Shown: in pieces, positions 52,401-61,296 of the stretch | Position numbering within the stretch: the stretch's first letter is position 1 | Layout: the number at the start of each line of letters is the position of its first letter | Source of the DNA: Mytilus edulis | Lineage: Eukaryota | Length of the DNA: 64,000 nucleotides | Direction: 5' to 3' | Assembly (NCBI RefSeq): GCF_963676685.1 | Contig: NC_092352.1 | Location: forward strand, 14,384,001-14,448,000 | Program-made: the position numbers and the translations under genes | Notes under the pieces: generated by a model | Databases searched by the model: none | What the model was told of the DNA's origin: nothing | Seen by the model: the letters and a program-made list of their open reading frames with translations, nothing else

Positions 52401-55400
52401 TTTTTTACCAAAATACAGGTTGAGATTGACAATTTCAGTAGGTTCACCATAAACAATATGGAGATTTACACCTCTGGACTGAGCATAACTTACTGAAGAA
52501 CATGTTAAGAATACCAAAAAAAATGATTGGTCTTAATGATAAAAGATCCATAATGTTAGCAGAAGTTCAAATATATTTCTTTGTTTACAGGCCATTTGGT
52601 CTTAATGATAAAAGATCCATAATGTTAGCAGAAGTTCAAATATATTTCTTTGTTTACAGGCCATTTGGTCTTAATGATAAAAGATCCATAATGTTAGCAG
52701 AAGTTCAAATATATTTCTTTGTTTACAGGCCATTACCACACCAAGTATGGCAGTCAGTCATGTAATGTTAGAGGCTTATAAAAAGTATATTTTGGTAGCA
52801 CTTATAGTCCATGGAAAGGTAAGTTGAAGAGGAATACTATCCAGTAACAATTTTTTTTTCAAGCTGCCAGTTAGGAATGGAATATAGATTTTGCTTGTTA
52901 CTTAGTCAAAGACCAAGGTCAAAGTTACTAAAAATATACAAAAATTGTTCAGAAAAGCAGTTCAGGATGCTTAATCAAATACAACATATTGGATTGATCT
53001 TTAATTTAGACTTTTGGTCACATATATTGAAAGGAAGATCCTTTTTAATTTTGAAGTAAGTCACTTGGTCAAAGATCAAGGTCCCTGTTAATAAAAATGG
53101 AATTGTATAAGACAATATTACTGTCTTAAAACTTGAAAAAAGATCATAGATTGAATTAAACTTTGCCATCAGGTCCCTGTAAGCGTTTTCCTTTTATATG
53201 TATGGTGCTGGATATGTGAACTTGCTAACTGAAGGTTCTTTTATTATCTTTCAGGTACCAAATTTACCAAAATATACATCACCTGTTGTTGCTAGATACA
53301 TTAAGGTAAGTGTTATAAAGTGAAACTTTTTAAGTTCATCAAATACCGGTACATTGATAGATTTTTTTCATAGAAACTATAATTTACATATGACAAATCG
53401 GTTATATTACTACAAAAAATACCAGGAATTCACACCAAACAAAACCATGTAAATTGCCACAGGAAATAAATAGTGAAAATTGTTCAATGGATAGAAATAA
53501 ACTCAAAAGGAAAAATGTAGAGATTGACAGCCACTTGACTGTCTTTTTTAAAGACATACAGATATCCATGGCATGTGTTGGATAAGATTAGTTTTATAGG
53601 TCCTGGACATTCTACCTCTTATCATATACCTTATACAGTTATCAGTACATAACAGAAAGATGTGGAGTGAATTTAAAATAGCACTTCAACCAATTTAAAG
53701 AAAAACATTTTCAAGAAGATGTTCAAGGGTTGATTGATATAAAAAAAAGTTCAGAAAATTGTAAGCAAGAATTCCCATGCAGTAACTTTTGAATGCAATG
53801 AAATTTAATGCAGTTGATTTCCATCTTGTAGAGGTGTATTTCTTGAGGGGTATGATTTCAGATCAGAGTATATTTTTTGGAATGCAATGAAAGTTGGTTG
53901 ATACAGTTGGGTATACATTTACAATTAATTCTCCATAGGCCGTAATGGTAACGTTTTCCTCCGTTGCTCAGTCCATATCGTTTACTTGAACATGTATGAT
54001 GGCTCATATCGAAGCTGATACATTTATACATGTCTGGTTAAATTTTCGGGGTGGCAAGTGAGATTACTTTTTTCGCAAATTGATGGACCCCGGAAGATGG
54101 TGAAAAATGTCAGTCTCCTCATGAAATAATCCCAAAATTCTGATCATAAAATTCAATGAAAAAATTGTCCTTTCTAATAATTTATTTCAGGTCAAATCTA
54201 CATCTTTCTTTTCTCATCACACCAGCTCTATAAAACAGTTCTTATTGTTCATTTATGTCCATTTTTAAAATCACAGCATCCACAATTGTATGGCGGACTA
54301 ATATTTTTTTTAATTACGTCATCTGAGTTCCTCATCTCAAGGTCTATTAGGGATCCTGACCCATATTGAAATTCATACTTCTGATTTTTCCAAATATTTT
54401 TATGTGATCTTCATCCGTATAACATTCTGAATAAATCTGTGTATTTTTGTCCATTTCTGAAAAAAAATAAAGTTGTTTTAGCACTATAAGGTAATGACAC
54501 TTTCGTCGCTATATTCATTTATTTTGAATACAATGTGTTTGTATAATTAATTTCTTCCAGAATACCTTCACTAGTCAAAACAAGGACAAAACTTCTGATT
54601 ATAACCTTTAATTACAATACACAGACCCTGTTAAAGCATTCTATAAAATTTTCTTGTGCCTTAAAGTGCATTTTGACAGAGAAATTATGCAAAAATGAAG
54701 ATTTTATAAAAAAACCAACACCAAAATAATTATTCTTACTAGTGGAAATCTGGTATTTAAAACTGTGGAAAGCACTCTTAACTACTTGGAAAGTCATCTT
54801 TATCATATAATTAGAGTGCAATATAGTGCAAATTTTCAAAACTTGTCCTTTCACATAATTCTATTTGAGTAAAAAATGTTTTTAACATGTATTTCAGTGA
54901 AAACCTTTTATTAGTGAGAAATCCACATGAGGTTTTAAAGGAAACATTGTGACATCACATGTATTATGGCGTCATTAAATAACGACAGATCAAAATAGAG
55001 CTAAATATAGTTTGCAGTGTTACGTGAGAAACAGTTGCCGCAAGATTTAACTCGAAATATTGAGTCGAAACGATCTGTAACTAAGCCTTTTCATTTAATA
55101 CCAAGACCATAGCAACAGTTTTCATATTTGCATATTTTTAACATACCGACTGTAATTTCAATTGCATAAATACCATAAATAAACAATTTAGAGCTTGCCT
55201 AATACAGCAAAATGCTTACCAGTTATTCAGGACTTTTTAAAACCTCTAGTTTGCCATCTCAGGTTAAAAAGTAATGATATGTCTGGAACTGAAATAAGAC
55301 AAAAAAATTACTCAGGCTGTGTTATCATTTGATTTAACCCTTTCGGTGCCAAAGCGACATATATGTCGTTTGGGGGTTGACTGCCGAAGCGACAAATATG

Positions 55401-58400
55401 TCGTTTGGGGGTTGACTGCCGATGCGACATATATGTCGTTTAATTGGTTTTAATAAAACAATCATATTTTATTTCTTTTTATCTTTTATGCTTTTGATAT
55501 TCTTATATAATATATACATTGTTGTTTTGAATTCATTATGACGTAATACGTTAAGTATATATGACGTCATAAATGTCAAAAGATCGTCTGTACTGTTCCC
55601 GACATAGCTATGGAAGACAGTGACGGTGACATAACAGACATAGTAACTTCGGGCGACGAAGATTCTGACGATGCTGATGTTGAAATGCCAGACAATGCTG
55701 CAAGACAGCCTAACCCTTGGTTTTCTGTGGTAGACAAAGAAACGTTTGAGCTAGACGTTAATCGTGATTTCGAAGAACGGATTGGGCCGTGTGGATTTGA
55801 AGCCAATTTTTCACCGGTGGATTACTTTGATAAATTTTTGAAAACAGAAGATGATGACTTGATTGATCGCATTGTAGATGAAACAAATAGGTACATTATT
55901 GGTTTTATATGTTTCAAATTATAACGTTCTTAATTTTCTTTGAATGTATATTTATATGTTTCCGTAATATAATTGCGGTCTACAAATCAATTTTCAAAGT
56001 ATTCTAATAATTAAATAACGCTCCAAAAGATAGCAGAGACATTTTTTCACAACATTAATTTAAAAGTTCTTGCTACCCTCCCACCCCCCCCCCCCCCCCC
56101 CCTCATCCAACAAAAACACCAGTAATCCTGTATATCCAATAACATATAACTGGTTTTGTCAACAGGTATGCCAACCAGTGCCAAACTACAGAGAATCCAA
56201 CAAGACATGCCAGATCAAACGAATGGTCACCAGTTAGCTATGCTGAGATGAGAGCCTTTATTGGTCTTGTTCTCGCGATGGGTATCGTAAAGAAATCCTC
56301 CATTGAAAGCTATTGGGAAGCGTCTGGTATCTCTGAAACCCCAAATTTCAGGGATGTGATGTCCAGAAATAGATTTCAGGCAATACTGAGATATCTGCAT
56401 TGCAGCAACAATACAACAGCAGTTCCAAGAGGTCAGCCAGGATACGACCCCCTCCACAAGATAAATCCAGTTGTTGAATTCTTCAATGAAGTGTTCGAAC
56501 TTAATTATAGGTAAATGTCAACTCAAATATAGAAATATACACAAGCCATTACGCGGTCATGTTTCCATGTTAAAAATAAACATAATTTATTGCTGGAACT
56601 GAGACGAATTTTGTCCTAATCATATTTTCCACTGCATACTAACTGTCATTGATTTAACACTGGTACCTCTTGTTTCGGGAAAGATAAGAGTAAAAAAAAA
56701 TCAATGTAATCAAAATTGTACAATCTGGTTATGTCGTTCATTATAAAATTCTAAAATATACATATTATTTTTTAATGTATTTTTTTTTTAATTGAGACAA
56801 GACTTGTTGTAAATAGATTTTACGGATTTTCAGACTATCTCAAAACATAGTTGTGGATGAGAGAATAGTTGGTTTCAAAGGGCGTCATGTTTTGAAACAA
56901 TACATTTCAAACAAGAAGGCACACAGATGGGGAGCAAAGTTGTTCGTCTTAGCTGAATCCAGAACAGGTTATACCCATCAGATAAATGTGTACAAAGGGA
57001 AACGAAATACAGAACGCCATCCCAATGGACAAGGGTAAGTGAAAAAAAGGGGGTGGTAACTCTGGATTTTCAGGTTTAGCGAAAATGCCAAAATAATATC
57101 GGCGAGATAATTTTTATGAAAATACCTTATCGGAAAAGAACACGAAAAATATTACTTTAATTGACTCAAATTAACATGATTGTTTCTGTAAATCGATGGC
57201 GACTGTATTGCGAATGAATATGACAATCCATGAAAGTAGACCAAAATTTACGCACATCTCCAGGTTTATACAGGGTATAACTTAATGACGCTGTTAATTA
57301 AGAAATGCCTACTTCTTATAATCAAGTAAGGCCGAATATAAGACTCGCATATTTAACATTTTGACTTGATAAAAAGTTCTAATTCTTACCTATTTCTATC
57401 TAATCGTTTCATTTTGTTATTGTCGGTTTTCCTTTTATTTTTTTTCGTCATGATTATACATGCAATATTTGTGACTGGACAAACACTCAAGCAATCAATC
57501 AATTTTTTTTATAGATATAAATCGGTAATGGATTTAGTACGTCCTCATTTTGGCAAAAACCATCATGTAACTATGGATAATTGGTTTTCATCACCTAAAC
57601 TGATGAACGACCTAAGGAACCGGGGAACAAATGCAACAGGAACTGTAATAGCAAGACGGAAGGGCTTACCTGCAAGTTTTAAAACAGCTCGGCTTCCCAA
57701 AGGAAGTGTTGTTGTTAAATCACAGAGAGGTCTTTTGGCTATTTTGTACGTAGATCGGAGAAATGTGACTTTCCTGACAACAAGTGAAAATGCACGGTAA
57801 GTTTCTTGTTTTTCAACCCAGCTTTGTCCGATAGGCCAATCCCTATATAATTTGACAATACTTGACTTTTAAAATAAAAAGTTATTAAAATACAACGTTG
57901 TCAAAAAAATACTTACATCGTGGAATATATGAAATACTTTCTTACACAATGTCAAAATTAACTATACAACAAAGTACAAGCTTGAAGTAACAGTCATGGC
58001 TAATAAAATTATAATATCACCAAAGTAAACATACAATAAAACAAGTCTTACTTAATATACTTTTCAGAACTGTGCGAAAAGTTAATAGTAAAGGTAGAGT
58101 TGTGTCTGCTCCAAGTGTTGTCCACAAATACAACCAGACCATGGGCGGTGTCGATCTTGGGGATCAGCTTTTGCTTAAATTTGAGCCACAATTTAAAGGT
58201 GTGAAACTCTGGAGAAAAATTCTCTTCAACCTTCTTACTACAGCTACAGGTATGTCTCATCTTAAACATTTGCAAGCTTTTTTAGTTGTCAATTCAAAGC
58301 CTAACTAAAAGACTATGTGCTTATGTTCAGTTGCAAATATTTCATGCATTGCCTAGAACAAGGATAAGTTGATATAAGTACCACGTATGATTTTTTTCAC

Positions 58401-61296
58401 TCGTTCCCGTTATCATTTCTTATCTAATTACAAGTATATAGCTTACTGTTTGGTGTGAGCTAATGCTCCGTGTTGAAGGCCGTACTTTGACTTATAATTG
58501 TTAACTTTTTATACACTGACTTGGATGGAGAGTTGTCTCTTTGGCACTTATACCACATCTTCTTATTTATATATATGTATATAATAGATTTGCACGGACT
58601 TAAACAAATAAACTTGCACTTAATATTTTTTCAGTAAATGCATATATATGCTACAGAAACTGTTTTCTTGTCCAGAGGAAATTAGACCATGTGAAATTTC
58701 AAAACGCAGTAGTTCGTGGTTTGATCGGGGATTTTAGAGGAGGCAACAGAAGGAGGGGGAGAAGACCAGACAACATTCCTATTGCAAATGCAATAAGGAT
58801 GCATTTTCTTGATGTTATTCCTGATGGCAAGAGGCGAAAATGTGTTAAGTGTTCAGGTTATAACAAGTACAGGAAATCCCGTATATCAACATGGTGTTCT
58901 GTATGTGGCGTGGGTCTTTGTGTTGGTCGGTGTTTCAGAGAGTTTCATTCATATGGACAGGAAGAGTAAACAGTTGAATTTTGAAATATTATTCATGTAA
59001 AATACAGTGCAATAATAAAGGATCTTTTAAAAAGATTTCATGTTGTATTAAACAAATGAGTTAAAAAAAGTCAAGGATTTTTTTTTTCGCTGAAAATTCT
59101 TTTGTGTTCTCTAAAAGTTAAAAGAAAAACAAAAAAGATTTATGATTATTTCAAAGCGAAGAAATATTTTTAAAACATTTCTGTGTTTGTTGGTCCTCAT
59201 TTCATGAAATTCTGTCAACGAACGACTTCGTTTTGATCTTTTGAAAACACGAGTTTTTGTATAAACTTTTGACGTTTTCACAACGACGGCGGCGATATTT
59301 TATTTTTATTTGGCTGTAGAACGTCACTCGGTGAAATCTTTATGGTGACGTTTCTAACGTCGGGAATTTGAATTCGGCACCGAAAGGGTTAAACACATAA
59401 GTACTATTGAGAGAGAAAAATCTAATTCTTGAAAGTTTAATCACAAAGAAAGACAAATGCTTCTCCCTTGTGGCTTAGTCACCTTCATTTAAACCTTTTA
59501 TTTTAGAAGCAATGGGTAGTAGCTAACTAGCTTAATAGTTGAATAGGTGCAGAAATATGGTTTTCAAAAAGGTTTGACCCTCCCCCTTTTTCACTGAGAA
59601 ATGACAATATCTATTGTTTTGCTCAAGCGCATTAAAAATATTAGTTCTTGATTTTCTTAAAACATGTACATGTTTTTTCTGTTTTTTTTGCATATGATAT
59701 CTACTGACCAGGGGTCAAATCATTGGATAAAAGCACATGCGATGATGTATCTCACTTTACTCGTATGAAGTGTGTTATCTCCCTTGATTATCAGGTATTC
59801 CTGTAGACCGAAGTGATAATTACATAACAAAGACTATATTGTGTCATGTTTACTTACAATTTAATAATATTTAAAAGTTGTTTCTTGCCTTTTTCAATAT
59901 AGTAAACAAATTCCTTTCGGATCTCTCGGAAGTAAACAAAGTGATGATTGTGCCTAAAAAAAGTGTTCAGCCCCGTGCCAGTAATGCATTTTAAAAGCAA
60001 AGTTTCATTGAGTTTTTGCTGATCTTTATCAATAATATTTATCTTAAACCATTTATAATAACTAGGTATAAATAAAAAACTACTAACCATCATTTTCGGT
60101 GGTGTACAAGGTGAAATCATCCATAAATCAGCCTGAAAACTTCCGGAATTAAGCTTCTAATTTGGGTATACATTTACAATTAATTCTCCATAGGCCGTAA
60201 TGGTAACGTTTTCCTCCGTTGCTCAGTCCATATCGTTTACTTGAACATGTATGATGGCTCATATCGAAGCTGATACATTTATACATGTCTGGTTAAATTT
60301 TCGGGGTGGCAAGTGAGATTACTTTTTTCGCAAATTGATGGACCCCGGAAGATGGTGAAAAATGTCAGTCTCCTCATGAAATAATCCCAAAATTCTGATC
60401 ATAAAATTCAATGAAAAAATTGTCCTTTCTAATAATTTATTTCAGGTCAAATCTACATCTTTCTTTTCTCATCACACCAGCTCTATAAAACAGTTCTTAT
60501 TGTTCATTTATGTCCATTTTTAAAATCACAGCATCCACAATTGTATGGCGGACTAATATTTTTTTTAATTACGTCATCTGAGTTCCTCATCTCAAGGTCT
60601 ATTAGGGATCCTGACCCAGTTGCTGTATTTCATGGACATTTTTTTCAACCATGAGCAATTTGAAGACAGCCTTTTGTTTGTTTGGCATTATAGCCCATGA
60701 GACAACTATCAATCATAGACCAACTGATTTATGGATGAAAGCAATTGTAGGTCAAAGTACACTTCAATAATGAGAAACATTAATATTGTATAGTAAGCTA
60801 TAAAAGCTCCTCCTCATGACAATTAACACTTCATTACATTTTTAGCAATTATTACATAATCAAATCTCTAAATTTAGATACAATTAAGACTAACGGTAAA
60901 TCATAAAGAGTATCACATAATATGTTATAATACCTTAGCATACTAGCTGTTGCAAAAAGACTTGTTTTTACCATCTATGTACTCTAATGATTTAGCCTTT
61001 AAACATTACCCTATTGTTCCTTCGCACTTAAGCAAACAAACAACCATCGTACTTATAAAGCATGAGACACCATCGCACTTAAGCATAGACCATCACACTT
61101 TTGAGTACCATTGCACTTTAGAGTCCTAAATATATGATTGGTATTTTATTTAAATTAAAAAGTGGGAATCTGAATTATTTTGTTTGTTTTACAGCCATTA
61201 TGCCAGCCATATCATGATCTTGCTGCATCTTATACAACCAATAATCCATCAGAGTTACGAAACACTGTGGGTAAACATCAGGAAACGTTTAATAGG
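40484..61296 (+). CDS. COPS3: COP9 signalosome subunit 3, first 10 coding exons (3' part beyond window)
   Basis: Exons 40484-40538, 44996-45125, 45625-45737, 48610-48659, 49364-49456, 50402-50476, 51861-51965, 52729-52818, 53255-53305 and 61195-61296 are all GT-AG and in phase. Translation: [19 protein letters not shown]...[17 protein letters not shown]...CNGEHVRYA...[15 protein letters not shown]...[13 protein letters not shown]...[23 protein letters not shown]...LPKYTS. Confidence 0.96.
40674..43462. mobile_element. Old TIR DNA element with GAG...CTC termini (Sola-like?)
   Basis: GAGTGGGTCCGGGGTAATTCCGTACA versus TGTACGAAATTACCCGGACCGACTC; internal repeats of GTAAT.CCGTACA. No TSD recognisable. 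Confidence 0.5.
40982..41822 (+). mobile_element. Helentron/HINE-like element with ~195-bp internal tandem cores
   Basis: 5' hairpin TTCGACTTTAGTCGAA, (GGC)n microsatellite, about 4 core repeats, 3' hairpin GGGTTCCG/TGGAACCC and T-run flanks. Confidence 0.75.
47483..48047. mobile_element. Kolobok-type MITE
   Basis: TIRs AGGAGTAGGTCCGGTAAG..TTTTGGCC / GGCCAAAA..CTTACTGAACCTACTCCT; TTAA flanks are degenerate. Confidence 0.65.
48711..49029 (-). mobile_element. 5'-truncated tRNA-derived SINE with 12-bp TSD
   Basis: Reverse complement of the 5149-5472 family; TGTATAGCCTTA is duplicated at 48699-48710 and 49030-49041. Confidence 0.8.
50515..50782. mobile_element. Foldback MITE (near-perfect palindrome, TA flanks)
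   Basis: GTAGGCAAAGGTAATATCTTTGGTTAGCTTGCTTGTTAGCTGAACCATGAAGTCA has an exact reverse complement at ~50708-50762. Confidence 0.85.
50862..51537 (+). mobile_element. Helentron/HINE-like element with (CGTC)n microsatellite and three ~170-bp cores
   Basis: Subterminal ATGCCCCAC / GTGGGGCAT, CGTC/CGTT microsatellite, three GTTAAAGTTTTTGGTCAAGGTAG cores and a 3' hairpin GTGT.C..GGACAC. Confidence 0.8.
52528..52735 (+). repeat. Perfect 69-bp triplication spanning the COPS3 exon-8 splice acceptor
   Basis: TTGGTCTTAATGATAAAAG...TTTCTTTGTTTACAG|GCCAT three times; the AGs end at 52590, 52659 and 52728. Confidence 0.95.
55338..59388 (+). mobile_element. Complete piggyBac transposon (4051 bp)
   Basis: TTAA|CCCTTTCGGTGCC ... 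GGCACCGAAAGGG|TTAA; 35-bp subterminal repeats with the palindrome CGACATATATGTCG at 55354-55440. Confidence 0.95.
55610..58969 (+). CDS. piggyBac DDD transposase, 541 aa, six exons
   Basis: Exons 55610-55890, 56166-56510, 56834-57034, 57515-57796, 58068-58249 and 58635-58969 splice GT-AG into one 1626-nt frame. Motifs [37 protein letters not shown] and the C-terminal Cys-rich domain CVKC...CSVC...[11 protein letters not shown]. Confidence 0.93.

What the first reader, a model, noticed from the sequence alone, without database searches (positions are those of the whole stretch)
53909..60617. Composite-like element with identical 454-bp terminal direct repeats carrying a whole piggyBac as cargo
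Seen: two apparently identical 454-bp direct repeats with GGGT...ACCC ends, an outer 4-bp TSD AGTT, inner flanks ATAT and ATTT, ~1.7 kb of non-coding interior and no gag/pol. Known: KolobokP DNA transposons of molluscs have long terminal direct repeats of this size class and resemble bacterial composite transposons. Inference: a young non-autonomous LTDR element that either received or transports an autonomous piggyBac. The nesting is COPS3 intron > LTDR element > piggyBac > repeat in a piggyBac intron.
Basis: partly seen in the sequence, partly recalled or inferred. Interest (0 to 1): 0.7.

Follow-up and report, generated by a model that had tools for sequence, protein, structure and literature searches.

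The report
Transposon that swapped its end repeats
This is a gene-less copy of a known shellfish jumping element (KolobokP) with one intact piggyBac transposon inserted in it, and its non-coding middle also occurs in sister elements with very different end repeats, which likely means the middle was re-capped with the ends of a gene-carrying relative.

Summary
Observation confirmed. Two identical 454-bp repeats (53909-54362, 60164-60617) with an AGTT target duplication lie in a COPS3 intron; an empty allele with one AGTT exists in two public runs. The element is a non-autonomous KolobokP: its repeat is 95.6% identical to that of a 5.1-kb autonomous partner in the same genome (Mutator-like transposase, His-Me nuclease) that reads like published KolobokP-1_MyGa. 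Monomers, solo repeats and multimers occur; 46 of 46 insertions checked have a 4-bp duplication. The piggyBac (541-aa spliced frame, no stop) is a one-off nested insertion, not shown cargo: its left junction occurs once against 343 empty sites. The new result is the interior. It barely aligns to the partner's interior, yet is 95% identical to interiors capped by repeats only 62-63% like ours. Repeat and interior trees conflict (AU p 0.001 to 2e-10), so end repeats were likely exchanged at least twice. No mixed-end intermediate was seen and the route is untested. The scan noted a non-autonomous KolobokP before in another genome, not this exchange.

The parts
52729..52818 (+). COPS3 exon (host gene, upstream)
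   Evidence: COP9 signalosome subunit 3, E 1.1e-9
53255..53305 (+). COPS3 exon directly before the intron that holds the element
   Evidence: in frame with both neighbouring exons
53905..53908 (.). left target-site duplication AGTT
   Evidence: single AGTT in the empty allele
53909..54362 (+). left long terminal direct repeat (LTDR, type A, KolobokP-1-like), 454 bp
54363..55337 (+). non-coding interior, left part, ending in the TTAA used by piggyBac
55338..59388 (+). full-length piggyBac transposon, 4051 bp, 13-bp perfect terminal inverted repeats
55347..55441 (.). 35-bp subterminal tandem repeat (2.7 copies) at the piggyBac left end
55610..58969 (+). piggyBac transposase gene, six predicted exons (55610-55890, 56166-56510, 56834-57034, 57515-57796, 58068-58249, 58635-58969), 541 aa without internal stop
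   Evidence: GT-AG introns, VDE and DNWF motifs; GGVD visible in the translation; PF13843 on three exons
58426..58590 (.). dispersed host repeat inside piggyBac intron 5, shared by the other piggyBac copies
59389..59392 (.). right TTAA duplication of the piggyBac
59393..60163 (+). non-coding interior, right part, ending ATTT
60164..60617 (+). right LTDR, identical to the left one
60618..60621 (.). right target-site duplication AGTT
61195..61296 (+). COPS3 exon after the intron (3' boundary approximate)
   Evidence: E 2e-9

Best explanation
The element is a non-autonomous KolobokP DNA transposon whose end repeats match a gene-carrying KolobokP family of the same genome while its interior matches non-autonomous elements with other end repeats, so the interior was likely re-capped with the partner's repeats and is likely moved in trans by the partner's transposase; an intact piggyBac sits once at a TTAA of the interior. 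Shown: identity of the repeats, target duplication, empty allele, family structure (monomer, solo, multimer), coding content of the partner, one filled against 343 empty TTAA sites, and the conflict between repeat and interior trees. Inferred: (1) mobilisation by the partner's transposase; (2) direction, from B/C-type repeats to the A type, because both sides of the deepest split of the midpoint-rooted interior tree carry B/C-type repeats and the A repeat groups with two autonomous families whose repeats and interiors diverged together; (3) route: a repeat is lost from an array or monomer, an A-type repeat enters at the exposed interior end (which reads ATAT or ATTT and fits the ANNT target) or replaces the old repeat by recombination through the conserved first 175 bp, and homogenisation of the two repeats or array turnover fixes it on both sides; (4) the piggyBac arrived by its own cut-and-paste. 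Whether it arrived before or after the host element landed in COPS3 is open.
For: Partner: L065, 5112 bp, 455-bp repeats 95.6% identical to ours, ACAT duplication, 738-aa frame PF20700 E 8.7e-58 and antisense 144-aa frame PF05551 E 1.2e-14; its repeat and interior ends read like published KolobokP-1_MyGa (456/455 bp, 4-bp duplication, 5127 bp; supplements 1 and 3 of PMC9587614, compared by eye). Duplications 46 of 46, first base A in 46, last base T in 44. Empty allele in runs X8 and X1 of two studies. Mean identities: repeats A-auto1 95.6, A-auto2 76.5, A-B 63.4, A-C 61.7, C-C2 97.9, B-C 87.9; interiors A-B 95.4, A-C 95.1, B-C 95.8, A-C2 88.5, C-C2 87.8. Control: autonomous families 1 and 2 differ alike in repeat (76.4%) and interior (about 79% and 74% over two blocks). 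AU tests: repeat tree rejects one clade of all 31 elements sharing the interior (p 0.001) and A+B+B2+C (p 1.8e-10); interior tree rejects C+C2+C3 (p 0.0017). Homogenisation: 27 of 45 monomers have identical repeat pairs, and 31 element-private variant sites are in both repeats against 47 variants in one only. Interior-to-A-repeat joint also in contigs of runs X15, X16, X18, and the paper's Data S2 lists KolobokP-1_MyGa repeat pairs about 2200 apart with no interior named (5 pairs in the first 30 of 138 places). PiggyBac: junction counts 1 and 1, 343 empty sites, 0.67-0.72% from three other full copies.
Against: No element with an A repeat on one side and a B/C repeat on the other was seen in the first 100 of 308 left and first 100 of 328 right junctions (paired by eye) or in the fetched loci, so the intermediate is missing. 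No autonomous element with B/C repeats was found (113 of 703 candidates scored; 20 loci fetched; first 100 of 337 matches), so the origin of the interior is not shown; it aligns only faintly to autonomous 5' ends (score 138 against shuffle maximum 79 for family 2; 95 against 95 for family 1; 3' end no better than shuffles). The interior tree has no outgroup and its bootstrap had not settled; its A versus B/C split is itself one branch (98/98), so direction rests on the midpoint root. Groups were named from identities before the trees but after the BLAST maps. The left inverted end of our repeat is weak (4 perfect bases, 10 of 20; partner 6 and 13 of 20). 'Private' variants are relative to 45 sampled monomers. 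The 343 sites include array units and all repeat types, so they are not independent insertions; the right-junction pattern holds a base private to this copy and is the weaker test. No listed contig of the four runs bridged the interior-piggyBac junction (table cut).
Confidence: 0.85

Rival explanations
1. The KolobokP element carries the piggyBac as cargo: the piggyBac entered a donor copy elsewhere and the 6.7-kb composite then jumped into COPS3.
For: The order of the two insertions is not resolved: the host unit differs from six close sisters by 9-12 of about 2200 bases (22 and 51 from two older copies) and the piggyBac from three copies by 27-29 of about 4040. Cut-and-paste could have emptied a donor. 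Other passengers have been multiplied inside arrays.
Against: Left junction 1 time in the genome; only the window spans the junction among 40 scored of 738 candidates; 11 other piggyBac loci lack KolobokP flanks; 10 of 10 passengers examined sit at different interior positions and share no long similarity.
Confidence: 0.07
2. Ordinary deletion derivative of the autonomous KolobokP-1 family, with a diverged interior and no exchange of repeats.
For: Repeat 95.6% identical to the partner; both interiors start ATAT and end ATTT; faint 5' similarity.
Against: No BLAST hit over 42 bp and no protein remnant between the two interiors, while the same interior is 95% identical in B- and C-capped elements; tree tests reject joint descent.
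Confidence: 0.04
3. The His-Me nuclease of the autonomous family cuts foreign repeats, and repair copies its own repeat in (a homing-like conversion of end repeats). This is one possible route within the best explanation.
For: Partner has an open His-Me frame; B/C repeats look mosaic, 75-92% like autonomous repeats over columns 25-175 but 39-54% over 175-400, and the first 25 bases of B resemble family 2 (80% against 48%) and of C family 1 (80% against 60%); repeat pairs are homogenised.
Against: No cut site is known or was tested; stronger constraint on the first 175 bp gives a similar profile; the 25-base windows are small; excision and re-insertion of solo repeats explains exchange without a nuclease (extra 4-5 bases between interior and right repeat in L080, L168, L177).
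Confidence: 0.2
4. Non-autonomous LTR retrotransposon (TRIM/LARD type), or two independent solo insertions.
For: Direct repeats with a 4-bp duplication and tandem arrays also occur in such elements (PMC9587614, discussion).
Against: GG..CC ends; the partner with the same repeats encodes a DDE transposase and a His-Me nuclease; inner flanks constant across copies and outer duplications in 46 of 46. PBS and PPT were not searched for directly.
Confidence: 0.01

Closest known systems
KolobokP-1_MyGa and non-autonomous KolobokP families (Kojima and Bao 2022, PMC9587614; read parts 1-5 of 6 of the text, searched supplements 1-4)
   Same: About 450-bp direct terminal repeats with GG..CC ends, 4-bp duplication, repeat sequence near-identical by eye to KolobokP-1_MyGa-LTDR, monomer length 2654 bp within the 1738-3261 bp reported for oyster non-autonomous families, solo repeats, multimers and interior-interior joints with micro-deletions.
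   Different: No non-autonomous MyGa family is in Table S1; short words of this interior and of the B/C repeats were not found in supplement 3 (line breaks can hide words). The main text has no 'swap', 'chimer', 'exchange' or 'nested'; it mentions only shifts of repeat length. Here one interior family carries repeat types 62-98% alike, and target sites are ANNT.
LTR swapping between autonomous and non-autonomous retrotransposons in soybean (Du et al. 2010, PMC2828711; title seen only, in reference lists; paper not held)
   Same: A non-autonomous element takes on terminal repeats of an autonomous partner.
   Different: A retrotransposon would do this during reverse transcription (recalled); KolobokP has no reverse transcriptase and needs a DNA-level route.
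IS26 pseudo-compound transposons and translocatable units (search listing and abstract starts only; discussed in PMC9587614)
   Same: Directly repeated terminal modules that bound exchangeable passengers, form tandem arrays and may pass through a one-repeat circle.
   Different: In IS26 the repeat itself encodes the transposase; here the repeat is non-coding and the passenger has no known function.
piggyBac superfamily (Pfam DDE_Tnp_1_7, PF13843)
   Same: TTAA duplication, CCC..GGG ends, 13-bp inverted repeats, DDD-type motifs, C-terminal cysteine-rich region (family hallmarks recalled).
   Different: Five predicted introns, one holding a host repeat shared by the family; no match to a named family was tested.

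Membership tests
KolobokP (non-autonomous) | LTDR-interior-LTDR with repeats near 450 or 660 bp | tested here: met
   454 bp, identical pair
KolobokP (non-autonomous) | Termini 5'-RR and YY-3' | tested here: met
   GG..CC on each repeat
KolobokP (non-autonomous) | Each repeat has its own short inverted ends (11-18 bp in oyster families; 6 bp listed for KolobokP-1_MyGa) | tested here: inconclusive
   4 perfect bases, 10 of 20; partner 6 perfect, 13 of 20; Table S1 lists values from 1 to 21 for mussel families
KolobokP (non-autonomous) | Target duplication of 3-5 bp outside the outer ends | tested here: met
   AGTT; 46 of 46 insertions; empty allele
KolobokP (non-autonomous) | Autonomous partner with DDD/E transposase on the direct strand and His-Me nuclease on the opposite strand, sharing the repeat | tested here: met
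   L065: PF20700 and PF05551, repeat 95.6% identical; no transposase tree was built
KolobokP (non-autonomous) | Solo repeats, multimers sharing repeats, and interior-interior joints | tested here: met
   solo L081, arrays on C1, C2, C4, C5, joints in L036, L070, L090
KolobokP (non-autonomous) | Mobilisation by the partner's transposase | not testable with these tools
   inferred from repeat identity and the shared ANNT duplications
Deletion derivative of KolobokP-1_MyGa | Interior ends homologous to the partner's interior at about the identity of the repeats | tested here: not met
   no hit over 42 bp; 5' score 95 against shuffle maxima 85 and 95
piggyBac | TTAA duplication and short terminal inverted repeats | tested here: met
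piggyBac | Intact transposase frame with catalytic motifs | tested here: met
   541 aa, no internal stop under a predicted six-exon model; PF13843; splicing not shown by RNA
Cargo-carrying composite transposon (piggyBac as cargo) | Same passenger junction at two or more loci | tested here: not met
   1 left junction, 343 empty sites
LTR retrotransposon (TRIM/LARD) | TG..CA ends and a gag/pol partner | tested here: not met
LTR retrotransposon (TRIM/LARD) | Primer-binding site and polypurine tract | not tested
   no search was run

The most novel reading that the evidence does not exclude
KolobokP end repeats are free, exchangeable caps: the autonomous element's homing-type nuclease and transposase convert or replace the repeats of other families, so that a eukaryotic DNA transposon builds new composite elements around foreign interiors, as IS26 does in bacteria, and any DNA between two caps (an intact piggyBac included) can be multiplied in arrays and moved. 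The exchange itself is well supported; the nuclease-driven route and movement of passengers to new loci are untested.
Probability: 0.2. Interest if true: 0.75.

Novelty: new variant of a known kind. Interest (0 to 1): 0.45.

Why it matters
The nested piggyBac is an ordinary event. The exchange of end repeats bears on the question that the KolobokP paper leaves open, how the composite architecture is kept or rebuilt and what the His-Me nuclease does (the 2026 review PMC13565253, one passage read, still calls the model unconfirmed). Three repeat types on one interior, with two gene-carrying families in the same genome, give matched natural substrates for cutting and transposition tests. It also warns annotators that KolobokP families defined by their repeats or by their interiors will not coincide. 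The intact piggyBac and the polymorphic 6.7-kb insertion in COPS3 are usable markers of recent activity.

Tried and rejected
Cargo transport of the piggyBac: rejected by junction counts. Coding remnants in the interior: none. Interior as a deletion product of family 1: rejected. KolobokP-H1_MyEd (2664 bp, similar size) as the family: its repeat and interior start read like family 2, not like ours. Mixed-end intermediates: none seen. Autonomous element with B/C repeats: none found; the one exact hit was a truncated repeat (L178). First exon models of the piggyBac had a wrong acceptor and showed false stops; corrected. Laying four runs on the element did not show a contig across the interior-piggyBac junction among the listed pieces, which proves nothing either way; X15 may be the source sample. 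X18 did not cover the insertion site. Rows left out of the trees: repeated units of arrays, truncated or passenger-bearing elements and a few further monomers; 31 elements, one per locus, were kept, plus 5 autonomous repeats. Literature searches: 'KolobokP' (2 papers), Kolobok+piggyBac+Mytilus (3), 'LTR swapping' (12), Kolobok+'long terminal direct repeats' (1), Kolobok+non-autonomous+terminal repeat+recombination+bivalve (1), LTDR+transposon (5), (8); judged from listings, none but the two papers read concerns KolobokP. Repbase and subscription journals were not available, so a named family or a note on repeat exchange there cannot be excluded; supplement 4 was cut when stored and supplement 2 was only word-searched.

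Full report
Observation. The repeats at 53909-54362 and 60164-60617 are identical over 454 bp, start GGGT, end ACCC, and have AGTT outside and ATAT / ATTT inside. Between them lie 1745-1746 bp of non-coding interior and a 4051-bp piggyBac with TTAA on both sides. The flanking exons are COPS3. Contigs of runs X8 and X1, from two studies, read from the left flank through one AGTT into right-flank sequence, so the duplication is real and an empty allele exists; X15 continues into the repeat without a difference and may be the source sample.

Family. The last 25 bases of the repeat occur 293 times in the genome, 0 times for the control. Fetched loci show monomers, a solo repeat, multimers with a 2198-2205-bp unit and interior-interior joints with small deletions. 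All 46 insertions checked have a 4-bp duplication, A first in 46 and T last in 44. A 5112-bp element with repeats 95.6% identical to ours has a 738-aa frame (PF20700, E 8.7e-58) and an antisense His-Me frame (PF05551, E 1.2e-14); a protein search lists over 50 places at 98-100% identity, many in arrays, among 113 scored of 703 candidates. These are the features of KolobokP (PMC9587614, parts 1-5 of 6 read). The published KolobokP-1_MyGa repeat and interior ends read like this partner (by eye), which suggests a Mytilus host (inference). The paper's Data S2 lists such repeats in pairs about 2200 bp apart without a named interior (5 pairs in the first 30 of 138 places), so this non-autonomous family was present in those data but not described there.

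The piggyBac. Six predicted exons give 541 aa without an internal stop and three exons hit PF13843. Three other full copies differ by 0.67-0.72%; one keeps the frame with 4 changes, one has an in-frame length change, one is frameshifted under the same model. The left junction occurs once in the genome and the right junction once (the right pattern holds a private base), against 343 empty sites, which include array units and all repeat types. None of 11 other piggyBac loci has KolobokP flanks. Ten passengers examined in interiors all lie at different positions (these loci were partly picked for odd spacing). The piggyBac is therefore a single nested insertion. Its timing relative to the COPS3 insertion is open.

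The interior is the passenger. Our interior has no BLAST hit over 42 bp to the partner's interior and no protein remnant; only its 5' part aligns faintly to autonomous interiors. Yet the same interior lies between other repeats: types B and C. Mean identities over 31 non-autonomous elements and 5 autonomous repeats: repeats A-auto1 95.6, A-auto2 76.5, A-B 63.4, A-C 61.7, B-C 87.9, C-C2 97.9; interiors A-B 95.4, A-C 95.1, B-C 95.8, A-C2 88.5, C-C2 87.8. The interior identity is even along its length (90-98% in 150-base windows). The two autonomous families diverged alike in repeat (76%) and interior (about 79% and 74%), so repeats do not simply evolve faster. The repeat tree joins A with autonomous family 1 (100/99) and rejects one clade of all elements sharing the interior (p-AU 0.001) and A+B+B2+C (1.8e-10); the interior tree rejects C+C2+C3 (0.0017). 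At least two exchanges follow (inference). Of the first 100 of 308 left junctions, 71 are A, 4 B and 25 C. The interior-to-A joint is also in contigs of three runs.

Direction and route (inferred). B/C-type repeats occur on both sides of the deepest split of the midpoint-rooted interior tree, and A groups with two autonomous families, so A is likely the newcomer; there is no outgroup. Repeat pairs are homogenised: 27 of 45 monomers have identical pairs, mean 1.0 difference within against 4.9 between A elements, and 31 private variant sites are shared by both repeats against 47 single ones. A repeat gained on one side would thus spread to both. Interior ends fit the ANNT target, and three loci have 4-5 extra bases between interior and right repeat, in L080 equal to the target duplication, as excision and re-insertion of a repeat would leave. 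B/C repeats stay 75-92% like autonomous repeats over columns 25-175 and fall to 39-54% over 175-400, which offers homology for recombination or records older partial conversion. Against this, no mixed-end element and no autonomous element with B/C repeats was found.

What is known. KolobokP structure, solo repeats, multimers and proposed circle and nuclease models are published; the main text has no 'swap', 'chimer', 'exchange' or 'nested'. Searches listed no other KolobokP study than a 2026 review (one passage read). LTR swapping is known for soybean retrotransposons (title only). Repbase was not available. The scan's earlier notes hold nothing for this genome and one non-autonomous KolobokP in another genome (not checked).

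Verdict. A real, young, non-autonomous member of a known family with an ordinary nested piggyBac; the cargo claim fails. The exchange of end repeats between KolobokP lineages is a well-supported pattern that I did not find in print, with an untested route. Interest 0.45; new variant of a known kind.

Noticed in passing
G000:C2:6.529-6.581 Mb (L074, L090, L091): A roughly 52-kb array made mostly of interiors without repeats (unit 1740-1741 bp; 28 listed sites, 5 repeat ends; ATAT at both outer ends). The paper's examples reach four joined interiors; this behaves like a satellite born from a KolobokP interior.
   Followed up: partly
G000:C4:96.57-96.64 Mb (L085-L089, L164): C-type array of about 19 units of 3633 bp, nearly all carrying the same 1427-bp passenger with an 8-bp overlap at its ends; ATCT at both outer ends. 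Multimerisation multiplies nested passengers.
   Followed up: partly
G000:C2:35.34-35.36 Mb (L040, L041) and C2:38.64 Mb (L073): A-type arrays in which a 557-bp and a 363-bp passenger were multiplied with the unit (2768 and 2565 bp).
   Followed up: partly
L080:5690-5720, L168:2735-2765, L177:6800-6840: Four or five extra bases between interior end and right repeat; in L080 they equal the element's target duplication, as if the repeat had left and come back.
   Followed up: partly
L077 (G000:C2:19.14 Mb): Two interiors joined head to head in inverted orientation, with a further repeat tail to tail 10 bases from the right repeat.
   Followed up: no
L187, L155, L156, L193: B-like repeats with a C-like 3' end (L187), another 5' end (L155, L156) or 11 differences between left and right copy (L193): possible B/C mosaics.
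   Followed up: no
G000:C10:1.70-1.78 Mb, C1975, C2:32.94-32.97 Mb; C12:58.93 Mb, C72, C520, C740: Long arrays of autonomous KolobokP family 1 with open transposase frames, and arrays of more distant relatives (38-40% identity).
   Followed up: partly
L080:6449-6908: A solo C-type repeat about 300 bases from an autonomous family-1 element.
   Followed up: no
window 52527-52734: Three exact copies of a 69-bp unit that includes the splice acceptor and first bases of a COPS3 exon: a very recent duplication or an assembly slip.
   Followed up: no
window 57843 and L047/L048: A 28-base insertion in piggyBac intron 4 in runs X16 and X8, and two piggyBac copies about 7 kb apart on C7 with the same interruption.
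   Followed up: no
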